Source: a virus
Direction: 5' to 3' (one strand)
Virus genome (UHGV): UHGV-0876955
DNA: 20,233 bases
Under the pieces are notes generated by a model. It ran no database searches and was not told the origin of the DNA. It saw only the letters and a list, made by a program, of their open reading frames with translations. The first letter of the stretch is position 1. Each line of letters starts with the position of its first letter. Position numbers and translations under genes: made by a program. Positions 73 through 20,233 of this stretch are shown one piece after another.

Positions 73-2322
73 TACAGGCTTTCCACCGTTAACAAAGCTA
101 TTTCTGGTCGTTACGATGGCGGCTTCCCATGTGGTCGTATCGTCGAAGTATTCGGTCCTCCAAGTGCAGGGAAATGTGTTACCGCAGACACCATGCTGCT
201 GACGGAGCGTGGAATGGTAACAGTGAAAGAGTTGTTTGAGATTGAAGGGTACAAAGCGACATGCACTACTCGCGATGTAGAGCATAACGTTGGACTCATC
301 AATGAAAATGGCGTGATAGAGAAGACCTCACACCTGACATGGAACAACCGTCGCAAATTCAAGCGTATTAAGCTGGCATCAGGCGGTTATATCGAGGCTA
401 CGTTCCGTCACCCAATCCGTGTGGTTGACGACTTAGGTAATGTCGTCTGGCGACATGCTGAAAAAATCAGTGTAGGCGACACGATTCCTTCAATGGTTGG
501 CACACATCAATTCGGCGATCAGCACCTGGATGCCAATATCGCAAAACTGATGGGCTATTTAATTGCTGACGGATACGTCGCCTCTGAAAATTCAGTGAAT
601 TTTTCTAACACAGATCCTTTCATCAAGGATGAGTACTACCGCCTCATTTCGCTGGTATCAGACAAGATGCCAGTTACGAGAAAACATAACGGCTCGGAAG
701 ACCATGTGCTGTTTAGCAAAGAGGTGCGTTCGCTGCTTTTTAAAGAATATGGTCTGGAGTATGAGAAAGCTGCTGGCAAGCAGGTTCCGTTGAGTGTGCG
801 TCGCGCCAATAGCGAGGCTCAAATTGCATTCCTTCGCGGCTACTTTGAGCTGGAATGCCACGTCAATGATGGTCGCTGCATTGAGGTTGTGAGCGCGAGT
901 GGGCTGCTGCTACAGCAAATTCGCCTCATGCTCCTGAATCTGGGGATTACGTCAACTATCTCTGAAAAACACGTCGCGGGTTATGAAAATACATATTACC
1001 GGCTGTCATTCAGTGGCTCTAATTACGACCTTTTTCTGTCAACGATTGGTTTCGAATCTCCGGCACGTTTATCAGTGGCAACCAAACGGGACATTGGTTT
1101 TGACCGCACTTACTCAGGCTATGTTCCGCACATCAGCGGCTTAGTGAAATCACTCTACGAGTCGCTCACCAAGACCACCCGTGAAGACTACGCTCTGGTA
1201 GACCACGTTATTGGCCGCGGCGATCGTGTCGGAATAGACAAACTGCGAGAAATCTATGTCTCCTTCATTGGCAGAAAGAATCGTTTTAACGAGCATCTGT
1301 TTGCACAACTGGCAGCGGTAATTGGCTCTAACTTGTTCTACGACGAAGTCGTGGCTATTGAGGAAGGTGAAGCACCAACGTTCGACGTAGCGATGCCGGA
1401 AACACACTCTTTCTGGTCTAACGGGATTATCAGCCACAACACATTCCTTGCAACAGCAGCGATGATCTCCGCTCAAAAACAAGATGGTCTGGCGGTATTC
1501 CTCGATCATGAAAACAGTTTTGACGTTGGCCTGGCTGTAGCCAATGGCCTGAACGCAGATGAGGATGACGGTCAGTGGGTCTACAAACAGCCGGATACCT
1601 TCGAAGACTCCGTAGAGCTGATCGGCACAATCCTCAAGCTGGTGCGCGACGAAGAGCTTATTCCGGAAACAGCCCCTATCTGCATCGTAGCCGACTCTCT
1701 GGCGTCGATGGTTCCGAACTCGAAGGCTGAGAAGTTCGACAAGATGGCAGAAGGCACTGCGAAAGACAAAGATCAGCTGAACATGAACGACAACACGGCG
1801 CTGGCGCGCGCGACAAGTGCGAACTTCCCTACTCTGGCGCTTTGGGCGCGTAAGTACAACGCGTGCATCATCTTCTTGAACCAGGTGCGTACCAAAATTG
1901 GTGTGATGTTTGGCGATCCGACTACGTCTCCGGGTGGCGACTCTCCGAAGTTCTACGCGTCGGTGCGCATCCGTCTGGGTGCATCCGTCATGAAGGATGG
2001 CAAAGAGAAGATCGGCCAGGACGTAGGCGCAGAATGCATCAAAAACAAAGTTGCACCACCGTATGGCAAATGCACCTGGAAATTCTACTTCGATCCTACT
2101 CGTGGCCTCGACGTTATCGAATCGCTCGTCGAGTACATGCTGGAAGAAGGATACCTGCCAAAGAACGCCAGCGGGCGAGTTGAAATTGGTGACAAGAAAT
2201 ACACCAAATCGCAGATCGTCGAGATGTATCGGGAGAAGCCACTGGCTGAAATCATTGCGGCTTTGCAGGCAATCGACGACCGAAGAGCAAAAGACAACCC
2301 CACCGAGTCAGTAGAAGAGTAA
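73..2322 (+). CDS. recA: RecA-family recombinase precursor containing an intein; 5' end unresolved (frame opens at 73 after an in-frame TGA at 70-72, no start codon before the conserved core)
   Basis: Extein reads ...GGFPCGRIVEVFGPPSAGK | TFLATAAMISAQ...ICIVADSLASM...FLNQVRTKIGVMFGDPTTSPGGDSPKFYASVRIRLG..., matching RecA Walker A and the [25 protein letters not shown] core as I recall it from E. coli RecA. Stop TAA at 2320-2322. Confidence 0.8.
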   Translation, partial: YRLSTVNKAISGRYDGGFPCGRIVEVFGPPSAGKCVTADTMLLTERGMVTVKELFEIEGYKATCTTRDVEHNVGLINENGVIEKTSHLTWNNRRKFKRIKLASGGYIEATFRHPIRVVDDLGNVVWRHAEKISVGDTIPSMVGTHQFGDQHLDANIAKLMGYLIADGYVASENSVNFSNTDPFIKDEYYRLISLVSDKMPVTRKHNGSEDHVLFSKEVRSLLFKEYGLEYEKAAGKQVPLSVRRANSEAQIAFLRGYFELECHVNDGRCIEVVSASGLLLQQIRLMLLNLGITSTISEKHVAGYENTYYRLSFSGSNYDLFLSTIGFESPARLSVATKRDIGFDRTYSGYVPHISGLVKSLYESLTKTTREDYALVDHVIGRGDRVGIDKLREIYVSFIGRKNRFNEHLFAQLAAVIGSNLFYDEVVAIEEGEAPTFDVAMPETHSFWSNGIISHNTFLATAAMISAQKQDGLAVFLDHENSFDVGLAVANGLNADEDDGQWVYKQPDTFEDSVELIGTILKLVRDEELIPETAPICIVADSLASMVPNSKAEKFDKMAEGTAKDKDQLNMNDNTALARATSANFPTLALWARKYNACIIFLNQVRTKIGVMFGDPTTSPGGDSPKFYASVRIRLGASVMKDGKEKIGQDVGAECIKNKVAPPYGKCTWKFYFDPTRGLDVIESLVEYMLEEGYLPKNASGRVEIGDKKYTKSQIVEMYREKPLAEIIAALQAIDDRRAKDNPTESVEE
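175..1440 (+). mobile_element. Intein (422 codons) with LAGLIDADG homing-endonuclease domain, inserted between Lys and Thr of the RecA P-loop
   Basis: Begins with Cys (TGT 175-177) in CVTADTMLL (intein block A-like); two LAGLIDADG-type motifs LMGYLIADGY (547-576) and FLRGYFELECHVNDG (829-873); ends ...GIISHN (Asn AAC 1438-1440) followed by Thr +1, after which RecA sequence resumes in frame. Confidence 0.8.
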
Positions 2323-2352: not shown

Positions 2353-2363
2353 TCTCTTGAAAA

Positions 2364-2382
2364 TATATAAGTACTTACTTAT
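2364..2382 (+). promoter_or_regulatory. Copy of recurring promoter-like motif TATATA-N-ACTTACYTAT
   Basis: tatataagtacttacttat; related copies at 4312-4334, 7825-7843, 19306-19324, each upstream of a + strand gene start. Confidence 0.35.
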
Positions 2383-2414
2383 TATTTTCGCATAACAACC
2401 ACATAGGAAAACAC

Positions 2415-2615
2415 ATGATCAAAATCTATCTATTGGCAGTATCCACAGGCCTTTCAGTGGCTCTCATCTACGGTTTACTAGTTCCGTCGCTGATTTCTAC
2501 CAAGAGTGATTTAGCCGTCATGTTTGGAGTTATCGTTGGTTTTGGTGCTCCTGTAATCGGTCTTATTGCTGGTCGTAAGTTTATCAACTCATTAATCAAA
2601 GCAAAGGGGAAATAA
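2415..2615 (+). CDS. Small hydrophobic membrane protein (66 aa), probably two TM segments
   Basis: ORF preceded by conserved start element aaccacataggaaaacacATG; hydrophobic sequence LLAVSTGLSVALIYGLLVPSLI ... VMFGVIVGFGAPVIGLIAG; stop overlaps SD of next gene. Confidence 0.5.
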   Translation: MIKIYLLAVSTGLSVALIYGLLVPSLISTKSDLAVMFGVIVGFGAPVIGLIAGRKFINSLIKAKGK

Positions 2616-2618
2616 GTA

Positions 2619-3449
2619 ATGAAGAAAGGTTTACTTGCAGTTGCTCTGGCGGCTATTTGCACAATGGGTCTTACTGGCTGCGATCGCGTGGAGCCTGGAT
2701 ACGTTGGCATCAAAGTAAACAAATTAGGTGAAGACAAAGGGATTGGTGAAGTGGTTGGCGTTGGTCGCCAATGGACAGGTCTTAATACCGAACTTTACGT
2801 ATTCCCGACCTTCAAACAAATGAAGACCTACGACGAGCCGTTCACATTCCAGATGAGTGACGGTACTGCTATTGGTCACAAAATTGGCGTTGCGTATCTG
2901 GTTAATCGTGACAAGGTAACGACGGTGTTCCAGACCTATCGCAAAGGCGTAGACGATATCACCGAATCAGATCTGCGTCAGAAAATTGCCGACTCTCTAA
3001 ACCGTTTGGCCAGCCGTATGACCACTGACTCATTTATCGACGGTGGTAAGGCACAATTGCTGGACAACGCACTGAAAGATATTCAGAAAGAGATGTCTCC
3101 GGTTGGTATTGAGGTACTGAGCCTGTCATGGGTTGGAAAGCCTGATTACCCAAAAACCGTCATTGAATCTATTAACGCCAAAGTAACGGCTAACCAGCGT
3201 ACTCTGCAACGTCAGCAGGAAGTTGAACAACGTAAAGCTGAGGCGAATATGCTACGTGAACAGGCTAATGGTGAAGCTGATGCTATCCGTGCTCGTGCGC
3301 AAGCAGAAGCAGACGCCATTCGTCTGCGCGGTGAAGCTCTGCGTCAAAACCCGAACGTTATGGAGCTGGAAGCCATCAATAAATGGAATGGCCAGTTACC
3401 GCAGTACATGACTCAAGGGGCTAACACTCCTTTCATTACAGTGAAATAA
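2619..3449 (+). CDS. SPFH/band-7 (prohibitin/HflC-like) lipoprotein
   Basis: Signal peptide with lipobox MKKGLLAVALAAICTMGLTGC; SPFH-like core and C-terminal Ala/Glu/Arg-rich helix (EADAIRARAQAEADAIRLRGEALRQNP) typical of band-7 proteins; SD aagggga upstream. Confidence 0.65.
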   Translation: MKKGLLAVALAAICTMGLTGCDRVEPGYVGIKVNKLGEDKGIGEVVGVGRQWTGLNTELYVFPTFKQMKTYDEPFTFQMSDGTAIGHKIGVAYLVNRDKVTTVFQTYRKGVDDITESDLRQKIADSLNRLASRMTTDSFIDGGKAQLLDNALKDIQKEMSPVGIEVLSLSWVGKPDYPKTVIESINAKVTANQRTLQRQQEVEQRKAEANMLREQANGEADAIRARAQAEADAIRLRGEALRQNPNVMELEAINKWNGQLPQYMTQGANTPFITVK

Positions 3450-3466
3450 CTCCCCTAAAAAGTTCA

Positions 3467-3491
3467 GGCGTCCAGTTGGACGCCTTTTTTA
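3467..3491 (+). terminator. Rho-independent terminator
   Basis: GGCGTCC-agtt-GGACGCC followed by TTTTTTAT; near-duplicate of the stem at 2329-2345. Confidence 0.6.
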
Positions 3492-3540
3492 TCGCAATTA
3501 TCTTATTAAGAAAACAATTTGTTTGAAAGGATAAGAAAAC

Positions 3541-3966
3541 ATGACAGCTATTAAGAAACTCTACGATGCTGCAAACGTGGCTCTGGATGTTATTGATGAT
3601 GAAGTAGCAAAAGGCTTTCCTGAACCTGATTGGGCGCATCAGCTACGAAACGCTATCGCAGAAATGACCCCACCAGATCCAACCCCCGACGAGACAGACT
3701 GGCAGCGATTCATCCGTATGTACGCTCAGGAAATAGGTCCAACGCCAACGGCAGAGCAGGCAATGCTGCTGAAATACTTCAAAGAGGCGGGAGAGGATTT
3801 ACCAATTGATGACTCAGCATATTGGTTCCACTGCGCATGGCGTAAGTATGACGTGATATTCACACAAGGCATGGGAAGCAAAGATATGGTTGTGTGGCAT
3901 CTACTCCATATAGACACAGCCGTTGACAGAGTTATTGAACAGTTTTTCCCTAAACAAGAAGATTGA
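3541..3966 (+). CDS. Hypothetical acidic protein (141 aa)
   Basis: ORF with SD gaaagga 8 nt upstream; strongly Asp/Glu/Pro-rich. Confidence 0.5.
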   Translation: MTAIKKLYDAANVALDVIDDEVAKGFPEPDWAHQLRNAIAEMTPPDPTPDETDWQRFIRMYAQEIGPTPTAEQAMLLKYFKEAGEDLPIDDSAYWFHCAWRKYDVIFTQGMGSKDMVVWHLLHIDTAVDRVIEQFFPKQED

Positions 3967-4020
3967 TCGCCTATTCATAACTAACAAAATAAGTAAACAC
4001 TAACCACAAAAGGAAAACAC

Positions 4021-4296
4021 ATGAGAGTTTTAGTTCGAATCGTTACCAGCACTGTCTATGACGTGTTTCCGCTTTTTATGGTCAAAGCCGATGGCCTTAA
4101 CGACGAAGAAACTGACGCGCTGATCCAGCGTATTCTCGTTGAATATACAGGTCATGACGCTGATTCAGTGATGATTGATGATGATGGTGTTTGTTGGCAT
4201 AACGGCAACTGTTGGTACGTAGAAGAGACTCAACAAATCAGTGATGAAGATGCCGCACATCTTGAGCGTATTTTAAGCATCAGCACTTTTGAGTGA
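4021..4296 (+). CDS. Hypothetical acidic protein (91 aa)
   Basis: ORF preceded by conserved start element accacaaaaggaaaacacATG. Confidence 0.5.
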   Translation: MRVLVRIVTSTVYDVFPLFMVKADGLNDEETDALIQRILVEYTGHDADSVMIDDDGVCWHNGNCWYVEETQQISDEDAAHLERILSISTFE

Positions 4297-4335
4297 GTTT
4301 ACAGTAAAATTTATATAAGTTAGTATCTACCTATC

Positions 4336-4515
4336 ATGAAGATTTTTATTGAATACTTGTTACTCATCGTGTCAATAGCTTTTGTCATCGACTGCATTTT
4401 CACTGGTGTCATTCGTAAAGTCTTTTCCCCGGTGAACGACGTAGTCATAAACGCTTTGGCTATCGTGCTCGTATTTAATTCAGCATTTGATGTAATCAAA
4501 GAGGTGGCAGCATGA
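4336..4515 (+). CDS. Small hydrophobic protein (59 aa), not in the supplied ORF track
   Basis: ATG 4336 to TGA 4513-4515, which overlaps the ATG of the next gene (ATGA); translation MKIFIEYLLLIVSIAFVIDCIFTGVIRKVFSPVNDVVINALAIVLVFNSAFDVIKEVAA is membrane-like. Confidence 0.35.
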   Translation: MKIFIEYLLLIVSIAFVIDCIFTGVIRKVFSPVNDVVINALAIVLVFNSAFDVIKEVAA

Positions 4516-4847
4516 AGGCCATCCCATTCGCGCTGTTGTTCCTTTCTTCGATCGTTGTGGCCGACACCACTGTTTATCAGTGTGAAATGTCTGTAGCCGA
4601 CGTTAAGAATGGCGCTCTTACCGACGTCATAAAAGCACCATATGGCGCGATGGTCGTAGACAGCGGCGACCAGTTCTATGTTGTGCGAGACGATCGAGTA
4701 TTGTCATCCCCATATCTCACAAACCGTAATGGCAAATTAACCGGCGTCGGAGAAGACCACTTCGTATACAACAAATACAAGGGCTTCTATGGCGTTCACG
4801 CTTCTCAGCAAAGCTACCTTTTCGATGACTGCAAGGAGGTTGGATAA
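4512..4847 (+). CDS. Secreted/periplasmic hypothetical protein (111 aa) with N-terminal signal peptide
   Basis: MKAIPFALLFLSSIVVA signal-like N-terminus; SD gaggtgg upstream. Confidence 0.5.
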   Translation: MKAIPFALLFLSSIVVADTTVYQCEMSVADVKNGALTDVIKAPYGAMVVDSGDQFYVVRDDRVLSSPYLTNRNGKLTGVGEDHFVYNKYKGFYGVHASQQSYLFDDCKEVG

Positions 4848-5059
4848 TGGCATTAACACTGGCAGGTCTGGAAATCGAGAAAACAAGCGGATACTGGCGT
4901 GCTAAGGGTTTCAAGCAGCCTGGCATTCTTGAGCGTCTGGAACGTGAAGATGGGTATATCGTCCACCAGCGGCGTGAATGGCGTATGTACGATCCAGAAA
5001 CAGGAAAACTGACTACAAAAGCCGGAACACTTTGGGGTCTGTTGAAGAAAATACACTAA
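4847..5059 (+). CDS. Hypothetical protein (70 aa)
   Basis: SD aaggagg upstream; start overlaps upstream stop (TAATG). Confidence 0.45.
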   Translation: MALTLAGLEIEKTSGYWRAKGFKQPGILERLEREDGYIVHQRREWRMYDPETGKLTTKAGTLWGLLKKIH

Positions 5060-5067
5060 ATGCAAAC

Positions 5068-5091
5068 TGACTGCGGCACGTGCCGCAGTCA
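5068..5091. repeat. 24-bp perfect palindrome centred on CACGTG
   Basis: tgactgcggcacgtgccgcagtca, followed by T-rich tatttcat; terminator or protein-binding site at the edge of the iteron array. Confidence 0.5.
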
Positions 5092-5106
5092 TATTTCATA
5101 GTCGTC

Positions 5107-5640
5107 ACCGCTGACAGCATACACAATCAACTGCCGCTGATAGCATATCGAGAGTCTATCTCACCGCTCACAGCATACTTTACTCGATTTTTTACCGCTG
5201 ACAGCATACTTAAGACATTGCATGAATAATATGTCCCGGTATGGGTATAACCAGAACAAAATTACCGCTGGCAGCATACGAAGGTCTGACATATACCATT
5301 AATTACCGCTGATAGCATATCCAAACAAAAATTCCTCAATAAAACACCGCTGACAGCATACGTTCTATCAGAGAGCAGCAGGCAATAAATGCCTTTCACT
5401 ACAAGCAATCAGCGCAATGGCAATAGAATGTTAGTGAGCGCAAACCTTTATGGAATGCACTCTTCGAGGTTAGTAACCACTGGGGAGGTATGACAGAGCA
5501 TTGAGTGGTGATAGATGATTAACCGCTCACAGCATACGTTTATCTCACTATACCGCTGGTAGCATATCTTTTAACCGTTCACAGCATACTTTTCAGGAAA
5601 ATAGCCGCTGATAGCATACATTTCACCGCTGACAGCATAT
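5107..5640 (+). repeat. Iteron array downstream of repA (incA-like): 12 direct copies of ~16-bp ACCGCTGRYAGCATAY
   Basis: Copies start at 5107, 5133, 5163, 5194, 5264, 5305, 5346, 5522, 5552, 5574, 5604, 5625; the last overlaps the repA stop. Confidence 0.85.
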
Positions 5641-6734
5641 CAAAGCAGTTTGAGACTATTGGAAAGGATCTCAATCATCTTGATATTTTCAGGCGTCAAA
5701 TTCTGCGAAAGTTCAGTTATCTTGTTGATAATGTTCTGTTTAGCATCAATTTCCCCGGCTTTCTCATCTGGTTTTTTGGGTTCGATGTCTTCAGGTTTTG
5801 GCGGTGCGACTTTGAGTTTTGGATTGCGGCTGTGAATCTGGATATAGATCGACCGCCCCCGCTTAATCTCGCTATATTCGAGATAGCCCAAATCTTGGAG
5901 AGCTTTTAAGCCGTTACGTATAGTCTGATTCTGCGAGCTGACATTCCTGCTACTCAAATTGAGTCGCGCACGCAATCGAGCAAGCGATACCGGCGCAGGC
6001 TTGGTTGGAAGACTTTCGATGAAGGTGTACAGAGCCTGTGCTGTTTCTTTGCGTGGTAGCTTATTGATAACCTTTAACTGCAAAAGAACCTTATGGTCAA
6101 AGCGATATAGTTCGGCCAGCTTCGGTTCTGCATAGAACACCACCGTATCTTTCTGCTCGTTGTAGTCCACGCTATTGATGAGGTGCACCATCAGAAGCGA
6201 GATCTTGTTAGAGCCGTCGACGTTCTTTTCTTCATACGTTCTCTGGAAAGACAGAGTTGTACGCATGATCTTCAAAAGACTGTTTGTAAGCCGGTCGCGG
6301 AGTGTTTTGCGGATCTGTGACGATGGATAGCCACAAAACTTCGCAAATTTCGTGATGCTTAACTCGACACGACCGTTAGGTTCGCCGTATTCTGCCAGCG
6401 AACGCACAACGCCCACCCACGTTTTGAAATCATGATCCATGTCGAGACGAGGACCGGTTATCTTGATATCGGAATAGCCTTCAGAACGGGCTACTTCGAG
6501 CTGAACAAGCTCCTTTGAAGCATCGATCTCATTTGGCTTGTTACGCTTGCTGTATTTTGTCCCCTTGAGCGTGGGCACGAACAACCCCAGCCGCATCAAC
6601 GCAATTGGTTGGACTGTATTGTTGCTATTAGGGACAAGTTCCCCTGTGTACAATTCAAGGGAACCTTCTTCAAAGTTGTCGAGATTATCTTCTACTTCTT
6701 TGTTATTTTTACCTTTTTTATTTTTTGTGGACAT
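5640..6734 (-). CDS. repA: Replication initiator RepA (RepFIB / P1 RepA family), 364 aa
   Basis: Motifs NSNNTVQPIALMRLGLFVP, KITGPRLDMDHDFKTWVG, LYTFIESLPTKPAPVSLARLRARLNL, HSRNPKLK match my recollection of RepFIB/P1 RepA. Start taken at ATG 6734-6732 (MSTKNKKGK); the track's longer N-terminus (to 6854) is just translated iterons. Confidence 0.85.
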   Translation of the reverse strand: MSTKNKKGKNNKEVEDNLDNFEEGSLELYTGELVPNSNNTVQPIALMRLGLFVPTLKGTKYSKRNKPNEIDASKELVQLEVARSEGYSDIKITGPRLDMDHDFKTWVGVVRSLAEYGEPNGRVELSITKFAKFCGYPSSQIRKTLRDRLTNSLLKIMRTTLSFQRTYEEKNVDGSNKISLLMVHLINSVDYNEQKDTVVFYAEPKLAELYRFDHKVLLQLKVINKLPRKETAQALYTFIESLPTKPAPVSLARLRARLNLSSRNVSSQNQTIRNGLKALQDLGYLEYSEIKRGRSIYIQIHSRNPKLKVAPPKPEDIEPKKPDEKAGEIDAKQNIINKITELSQNLTPENIKMIEILSNSLKLL

Positions 6735-6754
6735 GTGGACACCTTTGTCATTCA

Positions 6755-6856
6755 ACCGCTGACAGCATACTTGATTTGCCGCTGGCAGCATACCAAAAAC
6801 AGTTGGCAGCATACGGCGAACCGTTGACAGACTATCAATTACCGCTGGCAGCATAC
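6755..6856 (+). repeat. Origin iterons upstream of repA (incC-like): 5 copies at ~21-bp spacing, two degenerate
   Basis: Same consensus as the downstream array; copies at 6755, 6778, 6801 (partial), 6820 (degenerate), 6841. Confidence 0.8.
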
Positions 6857-6903
6857 ATGAACATGGCTTCAGACCAGTCGTGGCGCGGCTTACAGCGATC
6901 GGG

Positions 6904-6969
6904 GATCTTATTTGATCTATACAAGGATCTATCTATGGATCTCTTTATTAGGATCTATCCTGTGGATAT
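6904..6969. promoter_or_regulatory. Origin-associated GATC cluster (5 sites in ~52 bp) plus DnaA-box-like TGTGGATAT
   Basis: GATC at 6904, 6914, 6926, 6938, 6952 within repeated gGATCTat units; tgtggatat at 6961-6969 matches the DnaA box complement TGTGGATAA at 8 of 9. Confidence 0.55.
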
Positions 6970-7055
6970 GTGAATAATTAAAACAGGCATTTACTACCTT
7001 CGGCGCACCTGGTGAGTTATCGTTGCCTCGGCTAACAATCACAGAAAAATGACAT

Positions 7056-7700
7056 ATGGATCTAAAACGCACGCGCTGGGTTCGTCGTCTTGAAAACGGC
7101 TCCTACACTATCGAATCAAATTCCAACCTGAATAAGCAGAAGTTGCTTTGTGACATCTGCGGTATAGCGGCGAAGTGCCCGATCTACGAAACCAGAATTA
7201 AACTTGATAAGGCTGGTGTGAACTTTCATTTAAACAGTTGCATCAGGTACGTTCCATTGCTCGCATTTCGTAAACCGATCATCGGATTGGATGCACCCTA
7301 CTTCAACACACTCCGTTCAGGTGTGACGTGGCGAGATCGTTTATCACCAGACAAGCTGATTTGCCTTGTATCCGCAGACACAGGGAAAATCATCCGTTTT
7401 GGGAAAGTAGACAAGGTTTACTCAGGCCCAGTAGACGAAATGTTGCGGAAACACAGCCGGTTTAATCATCTCTGTATGGGTGGTGAGAAAATCGAGAAGG
7501 TAGAAGAAGTGATCCGCAAATCCTACGGACACTTTCTGACCAAAGATAGCCTGCTCACCGCAATCTACATCAGACATGTAAAACGTGAGTTCGACCTCGA
7601 ATACCACAGCGAAGAAGAGCTTAACCTTGTTGACCCACGTCCAAAAGCTGGCGTCATAAGCATAAACGCAGCGCGTAAAAAGCCCACTGACGCGCTGTAA
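7056..7700 (+). CDS. Hypothetical protein (214 aa) with Cys pair CDICG...C
   Basis: Long ORF with protein-like composition; no recognisable family; no clear SD. Confidence 0.45.
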   Translation: MDLKRTRWVRRLENGSYTIESNSNLNKQKLLCDICGIAAKCPIYETRIKLDKAGVNFHLNSCIRYVPLLAFRKPIIGLDAPYFNTLRSGVTWRDRLSPDKLICLVSADTGKIIRFGKVDKVYSGPVDEMLRKHSRFNHLCMGGEKIEKVEEVIRKSYGHFLTKDSLLTAIYIRHVKREFDLEYHSEEELNLVDPRPKAGVISINAARKKPTDAL

Positions 7701-7824
7701 CCCTCCAGATCGTATATTGGCGTAGATAGAATCTACGCCTCCTCAAAATAGCTCTCATAGCGTTCTACAGTGATCCTGTCTTATTTTTAGTTATACAGAC
7801 AAGCAAAGTTGCGTCACAACAAAT

Positions 7825-7843
7825 AGGTATATACTTACTTATA
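7825..7843 (+). promoter_or_regulatory. Copy of recurring promoter-like motif
   Basis: taggtatatacttacttat, nearly identical to the copy at 19306-19324. Confidence 0.35.
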
Positions 7844-7928
7844 AATTTTGTATATTAAGACGTTCGTTTCATTCCTAACATACCGTTATGCATAGTTGTT
7901 TACCTTCTCATTGCTCTTAAAATTTGTA

Positions 7929-16494: not shown

Positions 16495-17138
16495 TGGATT
16501 ACCGGATTGGGATCACTGGTGCTCAGGGCAGTGGGAAAACAACCCTGGCTAAATATATCGACAAACATTACGGAATCCCTTACGTGGATGCTGGTGTCGG
16601 AAGTTTGATGAGCCGCCTCGGTGTTCGAGTAGGTGATTCTATGCCTCTATATGAGCGGCTTCAGATTCAAATGGAAATAGCAAAGCATATAGAGCTACTT
16701 ACGCGTGGTGCTGAAGGCTTTGTTATCGATCGCACACCTGCTGATGTTATGGCCTACACGTTGGATTTGGTCGGCCATACAAATGAAGATCGGTGTATTG
16801 AGTTAGCCCTCGATATCGAAAAGTTTTGCCACAAAACTGCTATTTCAAACTTTAACGCCATTGCTGGCCTACGCCCGGGGGTCGCTCTCTCAGAGCGAGA
16901 TTACTTGCGGTCACAACGAGCATCATTAGACCGTCTGTATGTCGCTCGTATTGATGCGTTGATGTGCGGGGAACTGACAAAAATTCACCTGCATCCGCAA
17001 AGGGGAGATCTGCAAACCTTCGTCGTTTCCAACCGGTATCGCACAGTTGAAGCAAGAGCCAGATCAGTGATGAGAATGCTAGATAACGCGGTAGAAAAGA
17101 TAGAAAACCGGTTCTGTGGCCGAGTGACCGTTCATTAG
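16494..17138 (+). CDS. P-loop nucleotide kinase (putative dNMP kinase-like)
   Basis: Walker A IGITGAQGSGKTT at N-terminus; start overlaps DHFR stop (TAATG); specific substrate not determinable. Confidence 0.55.
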   Translation: MDYRIGITGAQGSGKTTLAKYIDKHYGIPYVDAGVGSLMSRLGVRVGDSMPLYERLQIQMEIAKHIELLTRGAEGFVIDRTPADVMAYTLDLVGHTNEDRCIELALDIEKFCHKTAISNFNAIAGLRPGVALSERDYLRSQRASLDRLYVARIDALMCGELTKIHLHPQRGDLQTFVVSNRYRTVEARARSVMRMLDNAVEKIENRFCGRVTVH

Positions 17139-17199
17139 AAATTGTTCGCCTCTTCGACATTGCGACAATAAAACTCTCAAAATGGGTTAAGGATAAAAA

Positions 17200-17619
17200 A
17201 TGTTTAGTGAAATGTTGCTTGAAGATGAACTGGATCGGAAAACAACAGAGGCTTTGATTCGTGTAGCGGACGAACATTCCCGGTCGCTTATGAGCGATCG
17301 AGAGGCTCGTCTGGCTATTCGTGCCATATTCGAAACTGCGCAGGGGCTTGTTGGTGCACAAGTGGGTGAAGCCATTAACATCGCCATGTCTCAGTTCAGT
17401 GAAGGCAGTAAAAAGTCTCTGTTTCCTATGCATTTGATGCTGGCTGGTGGCACGGTGCTTTATATCTCTGTTTGTCTGGATAGCAACCAAATCAATATTC
17501 TCAACACTGTGTCAGGTAAGTGGAAAGATCCGATTGTCTGTGAAACCAGTGAAGAAACTTTGAAAAAAGCGGCTCAATTTGTACGTAGCGCACTACTTAA
17601 GGGCGCTAAGAAGTTGTAA
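17200..17619 (+). CDS. Hypothetical protein (139 aa)
   Basis: SD aaggat upstream; no recognisable motif. Confidence 0.5.
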   Translation: MFSEMLLEDELDRKTTEALIRVADEHSRSLMSDREARLAIRAIFETAQGLVGAQVGEAINIAMSQFSEGSKKSLFPMHLMLAGGTVLYISVCLDSNQINILNTVSGKWKDPIVCETSEETLKKAAQFVRSALLKGAKKL

Positions 17620-17628
17620 GGAGTTCTG

Positions 17629-18186
17629 ATGACAACGATTGTTGCAGGCATCGATATCGAGTCTACGGGACTGGATTTCCTTGCTGGTCATAAAATTATT
17701 GAAATCGCAATTACCCGCTATGAACTGGAGACACAGAGACATATTGATAGTCTGGAGATGCGTTTTAACCCTCGCAGAAACATAGATCCGAAAGCTCAAG
17801 CCGTTCATGGCATTTCATTGGAACAGCTCGCAGCTGAACCTTTGTTGTCAAATCATGCCAGCGAAATTGGCGCTTATATGGGGGCATGTAGTGTGTGGGT
17901 TGCTCATAACGGCGAAGCATTTGATATACCATTTATTCGACACGAGTTTTCAGGGTATGGAGTAAGACTGCCAGAAGTTCCTGTTATAGATACTATGTTA
18001 TCGGGATTGTGGGCCACAGAAGACGGTAAACGTCCCCGCCTTGAAGAGTTGGCCTTCTCTCTTGGCTTTATATACGATCATGCCAAAGCACATAGTGCCT
18101 TATATGACACAAACTTAATGATGCAATGCTTCTTTAAGGCACGTAATAAGTACGGATTTTTTAAATTACCCTCTGAAATTGTGTAA
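17629..18186 (+). CDS. DEDDh 3'-5' exonuclease (DnaQ/epsilon-like)
   Basis: Exo I GIDIESTGLD, Exo II HNGEAFDIPF, Exo III HSALYDT; SD taaggag upstream. Confidence 0.8.
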   Translation: MTTIVAGIDIESTGLDFLAGHKIIEIAITRYELETQRHIDSLEMRFNPRRNIDPKAQAVHGISLEQLAAEPLLSNHASEIGAYMGACSVWVAHNGEAFDIPFIRHEFSGYGVRLPEVPVIDTMLSGLWATEDGKRPRLEELAFSLGFIYDHAKAHSALYDTNLMMQCFFKARNKYGFFKLPSEIV

Positions 18187-18192
18187 AACAAA

Positions 18193-18228
18193 AGCCTACT
18201 TTAAAAAGTTTAAAGTAGGCTTTTTTTA
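18193..18228 (+). terminator. Rho-independent terminator
   Basis: AGCCTACTTTA-aaaagtt-TAAAGTAGGCT followed by TTTTTTT. Confidence 0.7.
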
Positions 18229-18343
18229 AAGAACAGTCGCCTTTCAATCATTTTCTGCCTGTATTTAATACTTTTCCGCCTGATAGGTTTAGTCAAAATG
18301 CAGCCATCGAAACGCAAATGTAACCAAACAGAAGGAGACTTAC

Positions 18344-19152
18344 ATGAGTTCGGTTGAAAATGTAATGACAAATGATGATCTGGACGAGCTGACAGCCATG
18401 TTGCAATCACTTGATGAACCAGTAAAAAAGCTGCACAGGTTGAAAATACTGATGATATTGACGATCTGCTGCTCGGCCTAGATGCTGGCGTAGCCATGAG
18501 TTCTGATGATGTTGCCGAAGAACTTTTCAATGAAGAAAAAGCAGGTGATTTCAGCTCTGCTTTAAATGAGTTGGAGTTAGCGCATGAGCCTATAAACGTA
18601 ATTAACGCTGAAAGTGTTGAAGCTGCCGAAAACGAGCCAGAACAATTGGGATTTATTGAGGTTGAAGAGTGTGTTGAGGTTAATGATGAATTAAAAGTTC
18701 AACAGTCAAATGATAGCAATACAAATAAAAAAGCTCGTACTGCAAGAGGTCCTCGTTTTACTTTAAGTGATAAAGATGATTCGTTTTTCAATAAAGCGGG
18801 CTTAGAAAAAGATATTTTCTTAGACGCTTACGATAACGCGCCTGTCAAAGCAAAGGATAAGATATTAAACCTTCTTAATTGGTTTAGCGGAGGTCCAGAT
18901 ATTAGTGTTTACACGGTAATTTCCATGAGACACCTTCTCACAGAAAAGAAGGCTACAAGTAATAGTATTAAGATTGCTTTAATGAGCAATCCAGAAAAAC
19001 CGTATCCGCTTAACACTGCGTCAACTCAGGCTGGGCAAATGATGGCTGTATTTCCAGCGACAGGAATTGCCGTTAGAGACGGTGGAAATCTAACATTGAA
19101 CGAAGAATCACCGATCGTTAAGAAGTTTGTCGCGGAGTACACTATTGGATGA
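18344..19152 (+). CDS. Acidic hypothetical protein, apparently needing a -1 frame change at A_AAA_AAG (18424-18430) to join 18344-18481 with 18496-19152
   Basis: Strong SD aaggaga before ATG 18344; zero frame stops at 18479-18481 after 45 codons; the -1 frame is open from 18418 and continues into the 218-aa ORF; the ATG at 18496 has no SD. Confidence 0.45.
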
Positions 19153-19229
19153 CGTTCCCCTACTTAAAATAAAGCCCATAGAGAGCTTTATAGTACTGGG
19201 TAAGCCAATCACATACCCAGCACCACAAA

Positions 19230-19276
19230 AACGCGCCAGAGAGCTTCTCGTTTGCATTTCTGGCGCGTTTTATTTG
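19230..19276 (+). terminator. Rho-independent terminator
   Basis: AACGCGCCAGA / TCTGGCGCGTT 11-bp stem with 18-nt loop, followed by ttatttg. Confidence 0.55.
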
Positions 19277-19305
19277 ATTGCCAGACATAAAATCAAATGC
19301 AAAAA

Positions 19306-19324
19306 TAGGTATATACTTACCTAT
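19306..19324 (+). promoter_or_regulatory. Copy of recurring promoter-like motif
   Basis: taggtatatacttacctat, 11 nt before ATG 19336. Confidence 0.35.
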
Positions 19325-19950: not shown

Positions 19951-20016
19951 AGCCTGCTTCTGTATATATAAATAACTACATATTAATTATTAATATACGG
20001 AAGCAGGCTGTTTTGT
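19951..20016 (+). terminator. Long hairpin with AT-rich loop after the methyltransferase gene
   Basis: AGCCTGCTTC ... GAAGCAGGCT stem enclosing a ~35-nt AT-rich, partly palindromic loop; followed by gttttgt. Confidence 0.45.
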
Positions 20017-20233
20017 ATCAGAGACTCCAGACCTGAACATCACTACAGAATCCACTAGAACCCCTTCCCAGACGCTTTAAAATCGATTTTATGAACCACT
20101 TTAAGGAACCTAACATGTGCTTTCCTTTTATTATTTGTCAAAACAAGTTGTTTTCTAATTGCATAAATTGCTTACGCAGAGATGGTCAATGCATATGCAC
20201 TAACAGCCGTCAGAAATAACCAAGTACCGAACC

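What the first reader, a model, noticed from the sequence alone, without database searches (positions are those of the whole stretch)
2364..19324. Recurring promoter-like motif TATATA-N-ACTTACYTAT upstream of four transcription units
Copies at 2364-2382, 4312-4334, 7825-7843 and 19306-19324 each follow a terminator or intergenic gap and precede a plus-strand gene at variable distance (1 to 110 nt), which fits a promoter or operator rather than a ribosome site. It does not look like a textbook sigma70 -35/-10 pair, so it could be read by an element-encoded factor.
Basis: seen in the sequence. Interest (0 to 1): 0.4.

Follow-up and report, generated by a model that had tools for sequence, protein, structure and literature searches.

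The report
Dispersed palindromic operator of a phage-plasmid
The "promoter-like motif" is a 20-base palindromic protein-binding site that sits on the promoters of about 25 lytic gene blocks of an SSU5/pHCM2-type phage-plasmid, most likely the operator through which one repressor keeps the virus silent while it lives as a plasmid; its consensus also fits the binding rule of the host cell-division protein SlmA.

Summary
The motif is one half plus the centre of a 20-bp imperfect palindrome, ATARGTAAGT|ACTTACYTAT. The window has six copies, against 0.14 expected. The two new ones lie before nrdA and thyX. The window belongs to an SSU5-like phage-plasmid, 97.5% identical to Escherichia phage Cyrano. 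Cyrano carries 24 copies, against 0.17 expected, almost all in short gaps between same-strand lytic genes. SSU5, Klebsiella pJN2-26 and Yersinia pMT1 keep them at orthologous gaps. An Acinetobacter relative keeps the 12-bp core. The two half-sites vary independently, so this is a protein-DNA site and not an RNA hairpin. Sigma70-like hexamer pairs overlap the sites preferentially on the gene strand (24 of 58 against 7 of 58), in several registers. That pattern fits a repressor operator better than a fixed-geometry activator site. A perfect core copy covers the predicted start site of the conserved promoter of the element's XRE repressor gene in four lineages. Best reading: a multi-operator repressor regulon that works like P1 C1. 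The binder is inferred, not shown. The consensus also satisfies the published SlmA binding rule and equals the operator of a SlmA-related TetR subfamily. None of the four elements examined encodes a TetR of its own, so host SlmA is a serious rival.

The parts
2363..2382 (.). Operator copy 1, ATATATAAGTACTTACTTAT. It fills the 17-bp spacer of a sigma70-like promoter, TTGAAA 2357-2362 and TATTAT 2380-2385. An intrinsic terminator lies upstream at 2327-2347 and a small membrane-protein gene starts at 2415.
   Evidence: The same architecture occurs in Cyrano, SSU5 and pMT1.
4315..4334 (.). Operator copy 2, ATAAGTTAGTATCTACCTAT. It ends 1 nt before the ATG at 4336. It is overlapped by TTTACA-17-TAGTAT (4298-4326) and TTTATA-16-TATCAT (4310-4337).
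   Evidence: Orthologous copies occur in Cyrano, SSU5, pJN2-26 and pMT1.
7823..7842 (.). Operator copy 3, ATAGGTATATACTTACTTAT. It lies 112 nt before the sbcD start codon at 7955. In this window sbcD is only a remnant. A TATATT hexamer lies about 8 nt downstream (7851-7856).
   Evidence: Relatives carry TGnCATAAT at the same offset.
9758..9777 (.). It lies between the ruvC-like stop (9749) and nrdA (9823). It is overlapped by TTGATA-17-TAACAT (9755-9783). A terminator-like hairpin follows directly at 9784-9805.
   Evidence: It is conserved in Cyrano, SSU5 and pJN2-26 while the upstream flank diverges.
14468..14487 (.). It lies 14 nt before thyX (14502) and downstream of the terminator at 14400-14418.
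19305..19324 (.). Operator copy 6, ATAGGTATATACTTACCTAT. It lies 11 nt before the Dam-type methyltransferase gene (19336). A TTGCCA-17-AAAAAT pair (19278-19306, with TG) ends at its left edge, so the palindrome would cover the start-site region.
19964..19983 (.). Doubtful copy, ATATATAAATAACTACATAT (18.9 bits). It lies in the AT-rich loop of a long hairpin, CCTGCTTCTGT...ACGGAAGCAGG, followed by a T run. It is probably a terminator and not an operator.

Best explanation
The motif is the operator of an element-wide repressor regulon. It is a 20-bp dyad-symmetric DNA site, ATARGTAAGT|ACTTACYTAT, with two independently varying half-sites. About 25 copies lie on or next to the sigma70 promoters of the lytic transcription units: recombination, nucleotide metabolism, replication, packaging, head, tail and lysis. 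A symmetric DNA-binding protein bound there blocks RNA polymerase, or stops read-through from upstream units. This keeps the many same-strand lytic operons silent while the element replicates as a plasmid prophage. The most likely binder is the element's own XRE-family helix-turn-helix repressor (CYRAN_45 in phage Cyrano, encoded outside this window next to the integrase). Its conserved promoter carries a perfect core copy over the predicted transcription start, which would give negative autoregulation. Shown here: the palindrome, its excess over chance, its conservation at orthologous gaps, the independence of its half-sites, its directional overlap with promoter-like hexamers, and the copy at the repressor promoter. 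Inferred: that it represses, and which protein binds it.
For: There are 6 copies in the window against 0.14 expected. Cyrano has 24 non-overlapping copies of at least 15 bits against 0.17 in shuffles. At lower cut-offs (14 and 12 bits) SSU5 gives 22 and pJN2-26 gives 21, at orthologous intergenic positions with diverged flanks. Five copies lie in 13 kb of Y. pestis pMT1. The Acinetobacter relative ZW85p2 has 28 copies of the same 12-bp core with different flanks, and a distant relative has copies at orthologous gaps. The half-sites do not covary: 369 Watson-Crick pairs observed against 377 expected, and 48 G:T against 42 A:C mismatches. Sigma70-like pairs overlap 24 of 58 sites on the gene strand against 7 of 58 on the mirror strand, with the -10 in several registers (-3, 7, 12, 18, 21). 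The best promoter match of the window has the palindrome as its spacer. A perfect core lies 1-2 nt after a conserved TTTACA-16-TAATAT promoter, just upstream of the XRE repressor gene, in Cyrano, pJN2-26, pHCM2 and pMT1. Repressor homologues occur in 865 plasmids with the same host distribution as the element. In an LF82 lysogen, CYRAN_45 is expressed. None of the 14 genes expressed more than 5-fold above background follows a site of at least 15 bits (PMC9928086 read, compared).
Against: No binding data exist. The copy at the repressor promoter has the inner 14 bp but lacks the otherwise invariant outer TA/TA. Phage SSU5 has no repressor homologue yet keeps 22 good sites; this is explicable only if the deletion is recent. 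The motif is unchanged across lineages whose repressors are only 56-66% identical, whereas immunity specificities usually drift. Continuous conservation over 20 bp is more typical of a TetR dimer-of-dimers operator than of an XRE dimer. The consensus matches the SlmA/TetR operator type, which would be a coincidence under this reading. Only about 40% of sites have a recognisable sigma70 pair. Several sites lie 1-12 nt from a start codon, leaving no room for a leader.
Confidence: 0.5

Rival explanations
1. The sites are bound by the host nucleoid-occlusion factor SlmA, a TetR-family protein that binds as a dimer of dimers. The element would carry about as many SlmA sites as the whole chromosome. 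Possible consequences are repression of the promoters they overlap and loading of activated, FtsZ-antagonising SlmA onto the plasmid or onto replicating phage DNA.
For: The published SlmA rule is G,T,purine,A,G,pyrimidine per half-site, and G-to-A at position 3 leaves the affinity unchanged (about 60 nM against 50 nM; PMC3020112). The motif core GTAAGT|ACTTAC fits this rule. The extended consensus AAGTAAGTGAGCGCTCACTTACGT (PMC4423959) shares the flanking TAA/TTA with motif positions 2-4 and 17-19. In 66 of 120 bacterial loci the exact 18-mer lies just upstream of a TetR-family gene; where legible it sits between the -35 and -10. E. coli SlmA matches that subfamily profile at E=8e-27 and shares the GVSEAxxxRHF recognition helix. 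None of the four elements examined encodes such a TetR; the only TetR found is the resistance-island TetR(B) of ZW85p2, which served as the positive control. A synthetic promoter with an SlmA site between -35 and -10 is repressed by SlmA, and a multicopy plasmid with two sites makes SlmA toxic (PMC3573117). The 20-bp continuous conservation fits a dimer of dimers.
Against: G, the SlmA consensus base at motif position 7, occurs in 1 of 116 half-sites. The positions critical for SlmA (A8, G9) are less conserved than T2 and A3 outside its 12-bp core (the site selection is somewhat circular). Only 1 Cyrano site and none in the window is a perfect 12-mer by the rule, although native SBS17 and SBS12 also have two violations. 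Chromosomal SlmA sites are reported not to lie in promoters. An Acinetobacter relative keeps the core, and to my recollection, not checked here, that genus lacks SlmA. A constitutive host protein gives no obvious route to SOS induction, which Cyrano shows.
Confidence: 0.17
2. Another element-encoded protein binds the sites as a global regulator. Examples are one of the two ParB-like proteins encoded just upstream of the terminase genes (a KorB-like arrangement), or a Cro-like or lytic-phase regulator.
For: Two ParB-family genes are conserved from Cyrano to the Acinetobacter relative. Their operon is itself preceded by a site in all four genomes. KorB of IncP plasmids is a ParB-family repressor with a dozen dispersed palindromic operators (general knowledge, not checked here).
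Against: Nothing specific links these proteins to the sequence. The site upstream of their operon is one of about 25. The conserved copy on the repressor promoter points to the immunity circuit instead.
Confidence: 0.13
3. The palindrome is the binding site of a transcription activator that replaces the -35 element, as in the P1 late promoters served by Lpa.
For: Most sites lack a good -35. The P1 late-promoter box AAGTTACTT resembles the motif centre AAGTACTT.
Against: No Lpa homologue is detectable. The distance from the palindrome to the -10 is not fixed: registers are -3, 7, 12, 18 and 21, against 14 bp from box centre to -10 in P1 LPhot. At three orthologous sites the palindrome lies between a consensus-like TTGAAA and a -10, a repressive position. 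At the repressor promoter it covers the start site.
Confidence: 0.08
4. The palindrome acts in the transcript as an RNA hairpin: a processing site, translational operator or antitermination signal.
For: Many copies lie 1-20 nt from a start codon, and several lie directly upstream of terminator-like hairpins.
Against: There is no compensatory variation between the arms, and A:C mismatches are as common as G:U. The stem would be only 7-10 AU-rich pairs.
Confidence: 0.04

Closest known systems
Phage P1 C1 repressor and its dispersed operators
   Same: Both are temperate phage-plasmids whose many lytic transcription units each carry a copy of one operator overlapping a sigma70 promoter. Both have copies at the repressor gene's own promoter. 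The P1 record annotates C1 operators over -35/-10 boxes.
   Different: No C1 homologue is present. P1 operators are, from my recollection, 17-bp and asymmetric; here the site is a 20-bp palindrome. P1 late genes depend on the activator Lpa, whereas here the same site also precedes head, tail and lysis genes.
Mycobacteriophage L5 gp71 'stoperators'
   Same: About 25-30 repressor sites lie in short intergenic gaps of both early and late same-strand operons. They could silence by blocking elongation as well as initiation (general knowledge, not checked here).
   Different: Stoperators are 13-bp, asymmetric and orientation-dependent. These sites are symmetric, and about 40% overlap recognisable promoters.
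SlmA-binding sites of the E. coli chromosome and operators of the SlmA-related TetR subfamily
   Same: The core consensus, the flanking TAA/TTA, the 20-bp extent and the placement between -35 and -10 are shared.
   Different: The element encodes no TetR protein. G at core position 3 is avoided. The sites are promoter-associated, whereas chromosomal SlmA sites are mostly intragenic. Binding is untested.
KorB operators (OB) of IncP plasmids
   Same: One palindrome is dispersed over a plasmid genome at or near many promoters, and ParB-family genes are present in the element.
   Different: The sequence differs, and nothing here ties the ParB-like proteins to the motif.

Membership tests
Dyad-symmetric protein-binding operator (generic) | Two inverted half-sites that vary independently, with no pressure to keep base pairing | tested here: met
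   51 distinct sites gave 369 Watson-Crick pairs against 377 expected under independence, and 48 G:T against 42 A:C mismatches.
Dyad-symmetric protein-binding operator (generic) | Overlap with core promoter elements on the strand of the regulated gene | tested here: met
   24 of 58 sites on the gene strand against 7 of 58 on the mirror strand, and 4 of 6 window sites. Orthologous sites are not independent; there are about 12 independent groups.
Prophage master-repressor regulon (P1 C1-like in function) | Operator copies at many lytic transcription units and at the repressor gene's own promoter | tested here: met
   24 sites in Cyrano. The core lies just downstream of a conserved promoter-like -35/-10 pair upstream of the XRE repressor gene in four lineages.
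Prophage master-repressor regulon (P1 C1-like in function) | The repressor protein binds the operator | not testable with these tools
   This needs a gel shift, footprint or ChIP.
P1 C1/operator family (homology) | A C1 homologue encoded by the element | tested here: not met
   tblastn of P1 C1 against three genomes gave no hit better than E=1.6.
P1 late promoter (Lpa-dependent) | An Lpa homologue and a fixed distance between the inverted repeat and the -10 | tested here: not met
   No Lpa hit was found. The registers are variable.
SlmA-binding site (SBS) | A 12-bp palindrome with G,T,R,A,G,Y in each half | tested here: inconclusive
   The consensus fits. Perfect 12-mers number 0 in the window, 1 in Cyrano, 3 in SSU5, 6 in pJN2-26 and 10 in ZW85p2, against 0.1-0.2 expected. 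Most other sites have 1-2 violations, like native SBS17 and SBS12.
SlmA-binding site (SBS) | Base use at core position 3 reflects SlmA tolerance (G or A) | tested here: not met
   A in 105 and G in 1 of 116 half-sites.
SlmA-binding site (SBS) | Occupancy by SlmA in vivo or in vitro | not testable with these tools
   ChIP-seq or a gel shift is required.
TetR-family autoregulatory operator | A TetR-family gene in cis or in the element | tested here: not met
   A profile of 66 TetRs found only TetR(B) of a resistance island, the positive control, in four elements.
Phage-specific promoter for an element-encoded polymerase or sigma factor | An asymmetric conserved sequence at a fixed distance from the start, and a polymerase or sigma gene in the element | tested here: not met
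   The motif and its flanks are symmetric. The sigma-70 family gene of the Acinetobacter relative has no homologue in Cyrano, SSU5 or pJN2-26.
Structured RNA element or intrinsic terminator | Compensatory changes that keep the stem, or a G+C-rich stem with a T run | tested here: not met
   No covariation was found. The motif is AU-rich and has no T run. The terminators are separate hairpins.

The most novel reading that the evidence does not exclude
The roughly 25 palindromes are genuine high-affinity SlmA sites. The SSU5/pHCM2/pMT1 phage-plasmids would have recruited the host nucleoid-occlusion protein. It could serve as a copy-number-sensitive silencer of lytic promoters that is titrated away once the DNA amplifies. 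It could also make the plasmid or the replicating phage DNA a portable division inhibitor, perhaps in competition with the element's own repressor for the same sequence.
Probability: 0.15. Interest if true: 0.85.

Novelty: new member of a known kind. Interest (0 to 1): 0.5.

Why it matters
SSU5-like phage-plasmids are common in Escherichia, Klebsiella, Salmonella, Enterobacter and Yersinia; the window matched 813 plasmid records. They include pHCM2 of S. Typhi and pMT1 of Y. pestis, and members carry resistance genes. I found no description of their lysis-lysogeny control in the searchable literature. One 20-bp operator marking essentially every lytic transcription unit gives a ready map of their promoters. 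It also gives a single testable switch: one protein and one site. It offers a handle for curing or inducing these elements. The fit to the SlmA binding rule makes a concrete prediction that a host cell-division regulator sits on these plasmids, which can be tested with existing ChIP protocols.

Tried and rejected
- **RNA hairpin or processing site.** Rejected for lack of covariation.
- **The -10-like TAnnnT at motif positions 18-23 as a directional promoter element.** It is equally frequent on the mirror side, 37 against 33 of 58, so it is part of the symmetric flank.
- **P1 Lpa or C1 homologues.** None found.
- **An element-encoded TetR.** None found, with a working positive control.
- **Phage-encoded SlmA homologues.** The phage collection gave only contaminant or host-derived records.
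- **An early conclusion that no copy lies near the repressor gene.** This was wrong. The matrix over-weighted the flanks, and a core-only scan found the copy.
- **The absence of the repressor from SSU5 as evidence against it.** Weakened, because homologues are present in 865 plasmid relatives including pHCM2.
- **Structure databases for the repressor.** No hit. Pfam and PHROGs give only a generic XRE-type regulator.
- **More distant XRE homologues (Thauera, Klebsiella pFF979_1).** Thauera showed nothing. pFF979_1 has two direct repeats containing TTACTTACTAAAAT upstream of the gene, which is suggestive but not a palindrome.
- **Literature.** Key papers could not be read: Cho 2011, Tonthat 2013, Bernhardt 2005 and Lobocka 2004 are not held.


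Full report
**What the window is.** The 20,233-bp window is 97.5% identical over 87% of its length to Escherichia phage Cyrano (OV696614, the plasmid prophage of E. coli LF82). It is about 77% identical to Salmonella phage SSU5. It matches 813 plasmid records from Klebsiella, Escherichia, Enterobacter, Yersinia and Salmonella. It covers the recombination, replication-initiator and nucleotide-metabolism part of an SSU5-like phage-plasmid. The genes are recA with an intein, a small membrane protein, an SPFH protein, repA on the minus strand, an sbcCD remnant, ruvC-like, nrdAB, mazG-like, thyX, pnk, dhfr, an exonuclease and dam.

**The observation.** The four copies are present at the stated places, but the repeated unit is a 20-bp imperfect palindrome, ATARGTAAGT|ACTTACYTAT. 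The copy at 4315-4334 matches better when inverted, as expected for a palindrome.

- The pattern ATARGTA-N6-TACYTAT with up to two mismatches finds six sites against 0.14 expected. They are 2363-2382, 4315-4334, 7823-7842, 9758-9777, 14468-14487 and 19305-19324.
- A weaker hit at 19964-19983 lies in the loop of a long terminator-like hairpin and is probably unrelated.
- All six sites lie in gaps after a stop codon or terminator, 1-112 nt upstream of a plus-strand start codon.

**Element-wide and comparative picture.**

- A matrix built from the six sites finds 24 non-overlapping sites of at least 15 bits in the 108-kb Cyrano genome, against 0.17 in shuffles.
- Nearly all lie in short gaps between same-strand genes of the lytic programme. 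These include terminase/portal, capsid, tail, lysis, helicase/primase, ligase, SSB, recA, sbcD, nrdA, thyX, dam and RNase H.
- No site of at least 15 bits lies between about 85 and 105 kb. Plasmid-maintenance and toxin-antitoxin genes also lack them.
- At lower cut-offs (14 and 12 bits) SSU5 gives 22 sites and Klebsiella pJN2-26 gives 21, at orthologous gaps, although the flanking intergenic sequence has diverged.
- Yersinia pestis pMT1 keeps five sites in a 13-kb stretch.
- A distant relative with 30-55% protein identity carries TTAAGTAAGTACTTACTTAA at orthologous gaps.
- The syntenic Acinetobacter baumannii phage-plasmid ZW85p2 has 28 copies of ATTAGTAAGYGCTTACTAAT. The 12-bp core GTAAGYRCTTAC is the same and the flanks differ.

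The site system is therefore old and under selection.

**DNA site, not RNA.** Across 51 distinct 20-mers the two arms vary independently. Watson-Crick pairs number 369 observed against 377 expected when the arms are shuffled. G:T mismatches (48) are no commoner than A:C (42). That pattern fits two half-sites read by a symmetric protein. It does not fit a hairpin that must be kept paired.

**Relation to promoters.** The best sigma70-type match in the window, TTGAAA-17-TATTAT at 2357-2385, has the palindrome as its spacer, directly after a terminator. Three further window sites are overlapped by plus-strand hexamer pairs. The TTGAAA-17-TATNAT design recurs at the orthologous site in SSU5 and pMT1, and at a site inside the end of the portal gene in three genomes.

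The TAnnnT formed by the last three bases of the palindrome plus three more is not a directional signal. It is as frequent on the mirror side (37 against 33 of 58), so the symmetry extends into the flanks. Complete -35/-10 pairs are directional, however. They overlap 24 of 58 sites on the gene strand and 7 of 58 on the other strand. The -10 falls in several registers relative to the palindrome (-3, 7, 12, 18, 21). Orthologous sites are not independent, so this amounts to about 12 independent groups. A variable register with overlap of the -35, the spacer, the -10 or the start site is the signature of a repressor operator. An activator site would keep a fixed geometry.

At site 4 the predicted start would fall in the 5' arm of the terminator hairpin that follows (9784-9805). 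Read-through transcripts would then be stopped while transcripts from this promoter escape. This is an inference.

**Who binds: the element's repressor.** My first matrix scan showed no copy near the element's XRE-type repressor gene, CYRAN_45. This protein has 128 aa and gives only weak generic HTH matches (HTH_19 below the Pfam cut-off; phrog_8). It is expressed in the LF82 lysogen (PMC9928086). That scan over-weighted the flanks.

A core-only scan finds a perfect core at Cyrano 42607-42618 (TCTG|GTAAGTGCTTAC|CGAT) and at the same place in pJN2-26. An alignment of the immunity regions of Cyrano, pJN2-26, pHCM2 and pMT1 shows which block is best conserved. It is a promoter, TTTACA-16-TAATAT, followed within 1-2 nt by [G/A]GTAAG[C/T]ACTTACC and then the repressor gene. 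The operator core therefore covers the predicted start site of the repressor promoter, the classic arrangement for autoregulation.

Repressor homologues sit next to the integrase in 865 plasmids, with the same host distribution as the element. These include pHCM2, pMT1 and Acinetobacter plasmids. Phage SSU5 itself lacks the gene. It is most simply a recent immunity-deletion derivative of a pHCM2-like plasmid, so the persistence of its sites does not argue against the repressor. In the lysogen transcriptome, none of the 14 Cyrano genes expressed more than 5-fold above background follows a site of at least 15 bits. About 2.7 would be expected by chance, so this is only weakly informative.

**The unexpected resemblance to SlmA.** The exact 18-mer TARGTAAGTACTTACYTA occurs once per locus in at least 120 loci from very diverse bacteria. 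In 66 of them it lies just upstream of a roughly 200-aa TetR-family gene. Where legible it sits between a TTGACA -35 and a -10. It is therefore the autoregulatory operator of a widespread TetR subfamily.

E. coli SlmA, the TetR-family nucleoid-occlusion factor, matches the profile of these proteins at E=8e-27 and shares their recognition helix GVSEAxxxRHF. Three published results bear on this:

- The SlmA site is the palindrome GTGAGTACTCAC. G, T, A and G at positions 1, 2, 4 and 5 are required. Any purine is accepted at position 3, and G-to-A leaves the Kd at about 60 nM against 50 nM. Any pyrimidine is accepted at position 6 (PMC3020112). The phage core GTAAGT|ACTTAC obeys this rule.
- The extended consensus AAGTAAGTGAGCGCTCACTTACGT (quoted in PMC4423959) shares the flanking TAA/TTA with the phage motif.
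- A synthetic promoter with an SlmA site between -35 and -10 is repressed by SlmA, and a multicopy plasmid with two sites makes SlmA toxic (PMC3573117).

None of the four phage-plasmids encodes such a TetR protein. The search did detect the resistance-island TetR(B) of ZW85p2, the positive control. Host SlmA is therefore a real candidate binder.

Several findings count against SlmA:

- G at motif position 7, the SlmA consensus base, occurs in 1 of 116 half-sites.
- The positions critical for SlmA (A8, G9) are less conserved than T2 and A3 outside its 12-bp core. The site selection makes this comparison somewhat circular.
- The window has no perfect 12-mer and Cyrano has one, although native SBS17 and SBS12 also break the rule twice.
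- Chromosomal SlmA sites are reported to avoid promoters.
- The core persists in Acinetobacter. To my recollection, unverified, that genus lacks SlmA.
- A constitutive host protein does not explain the SOS inducibility of Cyrano.

Finding some transcription-factor family with the same 18-mer in 596 Gb of sequence is not in itself very surprising. That the family contains a host protein with a matching rule is the part that remains unexplained under the repressor reading.

**Weighing.**

| Reading | Probability |
|---|---|
| Protein-binding operator that represses, whatever the binder | about 0.8 |
| Bound by the element's XRE repressor | about 0.5 |
| Bound by host SlmA, alone or in competition | about 0.15-0.2 |
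| Bound by another element protein, such as the ParB-like pair | about 0.13 |
| Activator site of the P1 Lpa kind | under 0.1 |
| RNA element | about 0.04 |

For the activator reading there is no Lpa homologue and the geometry is variable. This is so even though the P1 box AAGTTACTT resembles the motif centre.

**Comparison and novelty.** Functionally this is the P1 C1 or L5 stoperator kind of arrangement: one repressor and many operators spread over all lytic units of a prophage. It is not a homologous member of either. There is no C1 homologue, and the site is palindromic, not asymmetric. Searches of the held literature returned no description of this operator, or of any regulatory motif of SSU5, pHCM2 or pMT1 elements. 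I class it as a new member of a known kind, with a low-probability but interesting reading in which host SlmA is recruited.

Noticed in passing
window 193-2322: The recA-like gene (709 aa) is interrupted by an intein with a LAGLIDADG homing-endonuclease domain (Pfam RecA, LAGLIDADG_3 and Intein_splicing). SSU5 and pMT1 have a 358-aa recombinase without it.
   Followed up: partly
window 7958-8647, 5077-6867, 1-44 and 20100-20233: Relative to Cyrano, the window carries a 690-bp sbcC fragment in inverted orientation and lacks the rest of sbcCD, so the gene after operator copy 3 is only a remnant. The repA region is a different allele. Both ends of the window are rearranged: 1-44 resembles the start of phage HK140, and 20100-20233 is inverted.
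   Followed up: partly
window 9784-9805, with similar cases at Cyrano 5469-5489, 15557-15579 and 22469-22489: A terminator-like hairpin starts 1-9 nt after several operator copies. A start site from the overlapping promoter would fall at or inside the 5' arm. This could let the promoter escape a terminator that stops upstream transcripts.
   Followed up: no
window 19952-20005 and Cyrano 31160-31215: Two long hairpins, CTGCTTCTGT...ACAGAAGCAG, have AT-rich loops that weakly resemble the operator and are followed by T runs. This may be a second repeated intergenic element.
   Followed up: no
loci L012-L131: The perfect palindrome TAAGTAAGTACTTACTTA lies just upstream of a TetR-family gene in 66 loci from Acidobacteria, Verrucomicrobia, Planctomycetes, Firmicutes, Bifidobacterium and others. 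Where legible it sits between TTGACA and a -10. It is an unusually invariant operator for a TetR subfamily to which SlmA is related.
   Followed up: partly
L210:1455-1466 (E. coli K-12, about 30 nt upstream of slmA): GCAAGTGCTTAT, an SlmA-site-like palindrome with two deviations, lies just upstream of the slmA start codon. It may be a vestige of the autoregulatory operator of the TetR subfamily.
   Followed up: no
loci L134-L206, non-SSU5 viral contigs: The 20-mer GTAAGTAAGTACTTACTTAC occurs once each in several groups of unrelated viral contigs. The surrounding contexts are conserved, and no TetR or XRE gene lies nearby. This is unexplained.
   Followed up: no
L208:42323-42988 (A. baumannii ZW85p2): The Acinetobacter relative encodes a sigma-70 family sigma factor next to the CobS/CobT-like genes. 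It has no homologue in Cyrano, SSU5 or pJN2-26.
   Followed up: partly
L004:780-1301 (Cyrano CYRAN_114, outside the window): A FljA-like protein (Pfam Flag1_repress, E=1e-80) is conserved in SSU5 and pJN2-26. In Salmonella, FljA is, from my recollection, a post-transcriptional repressor of flagellin.
   Followed up: no
L216:2405-2470 (Klebsiella pFF979_1): A different phage-plasmid lineage has a 48%-identical XRE repressor. Upstream of that gene lie two direct repeats of about 27 bp containing TTACTTACTAAAAT, which resembles the operator half-site.
   Followed up: no
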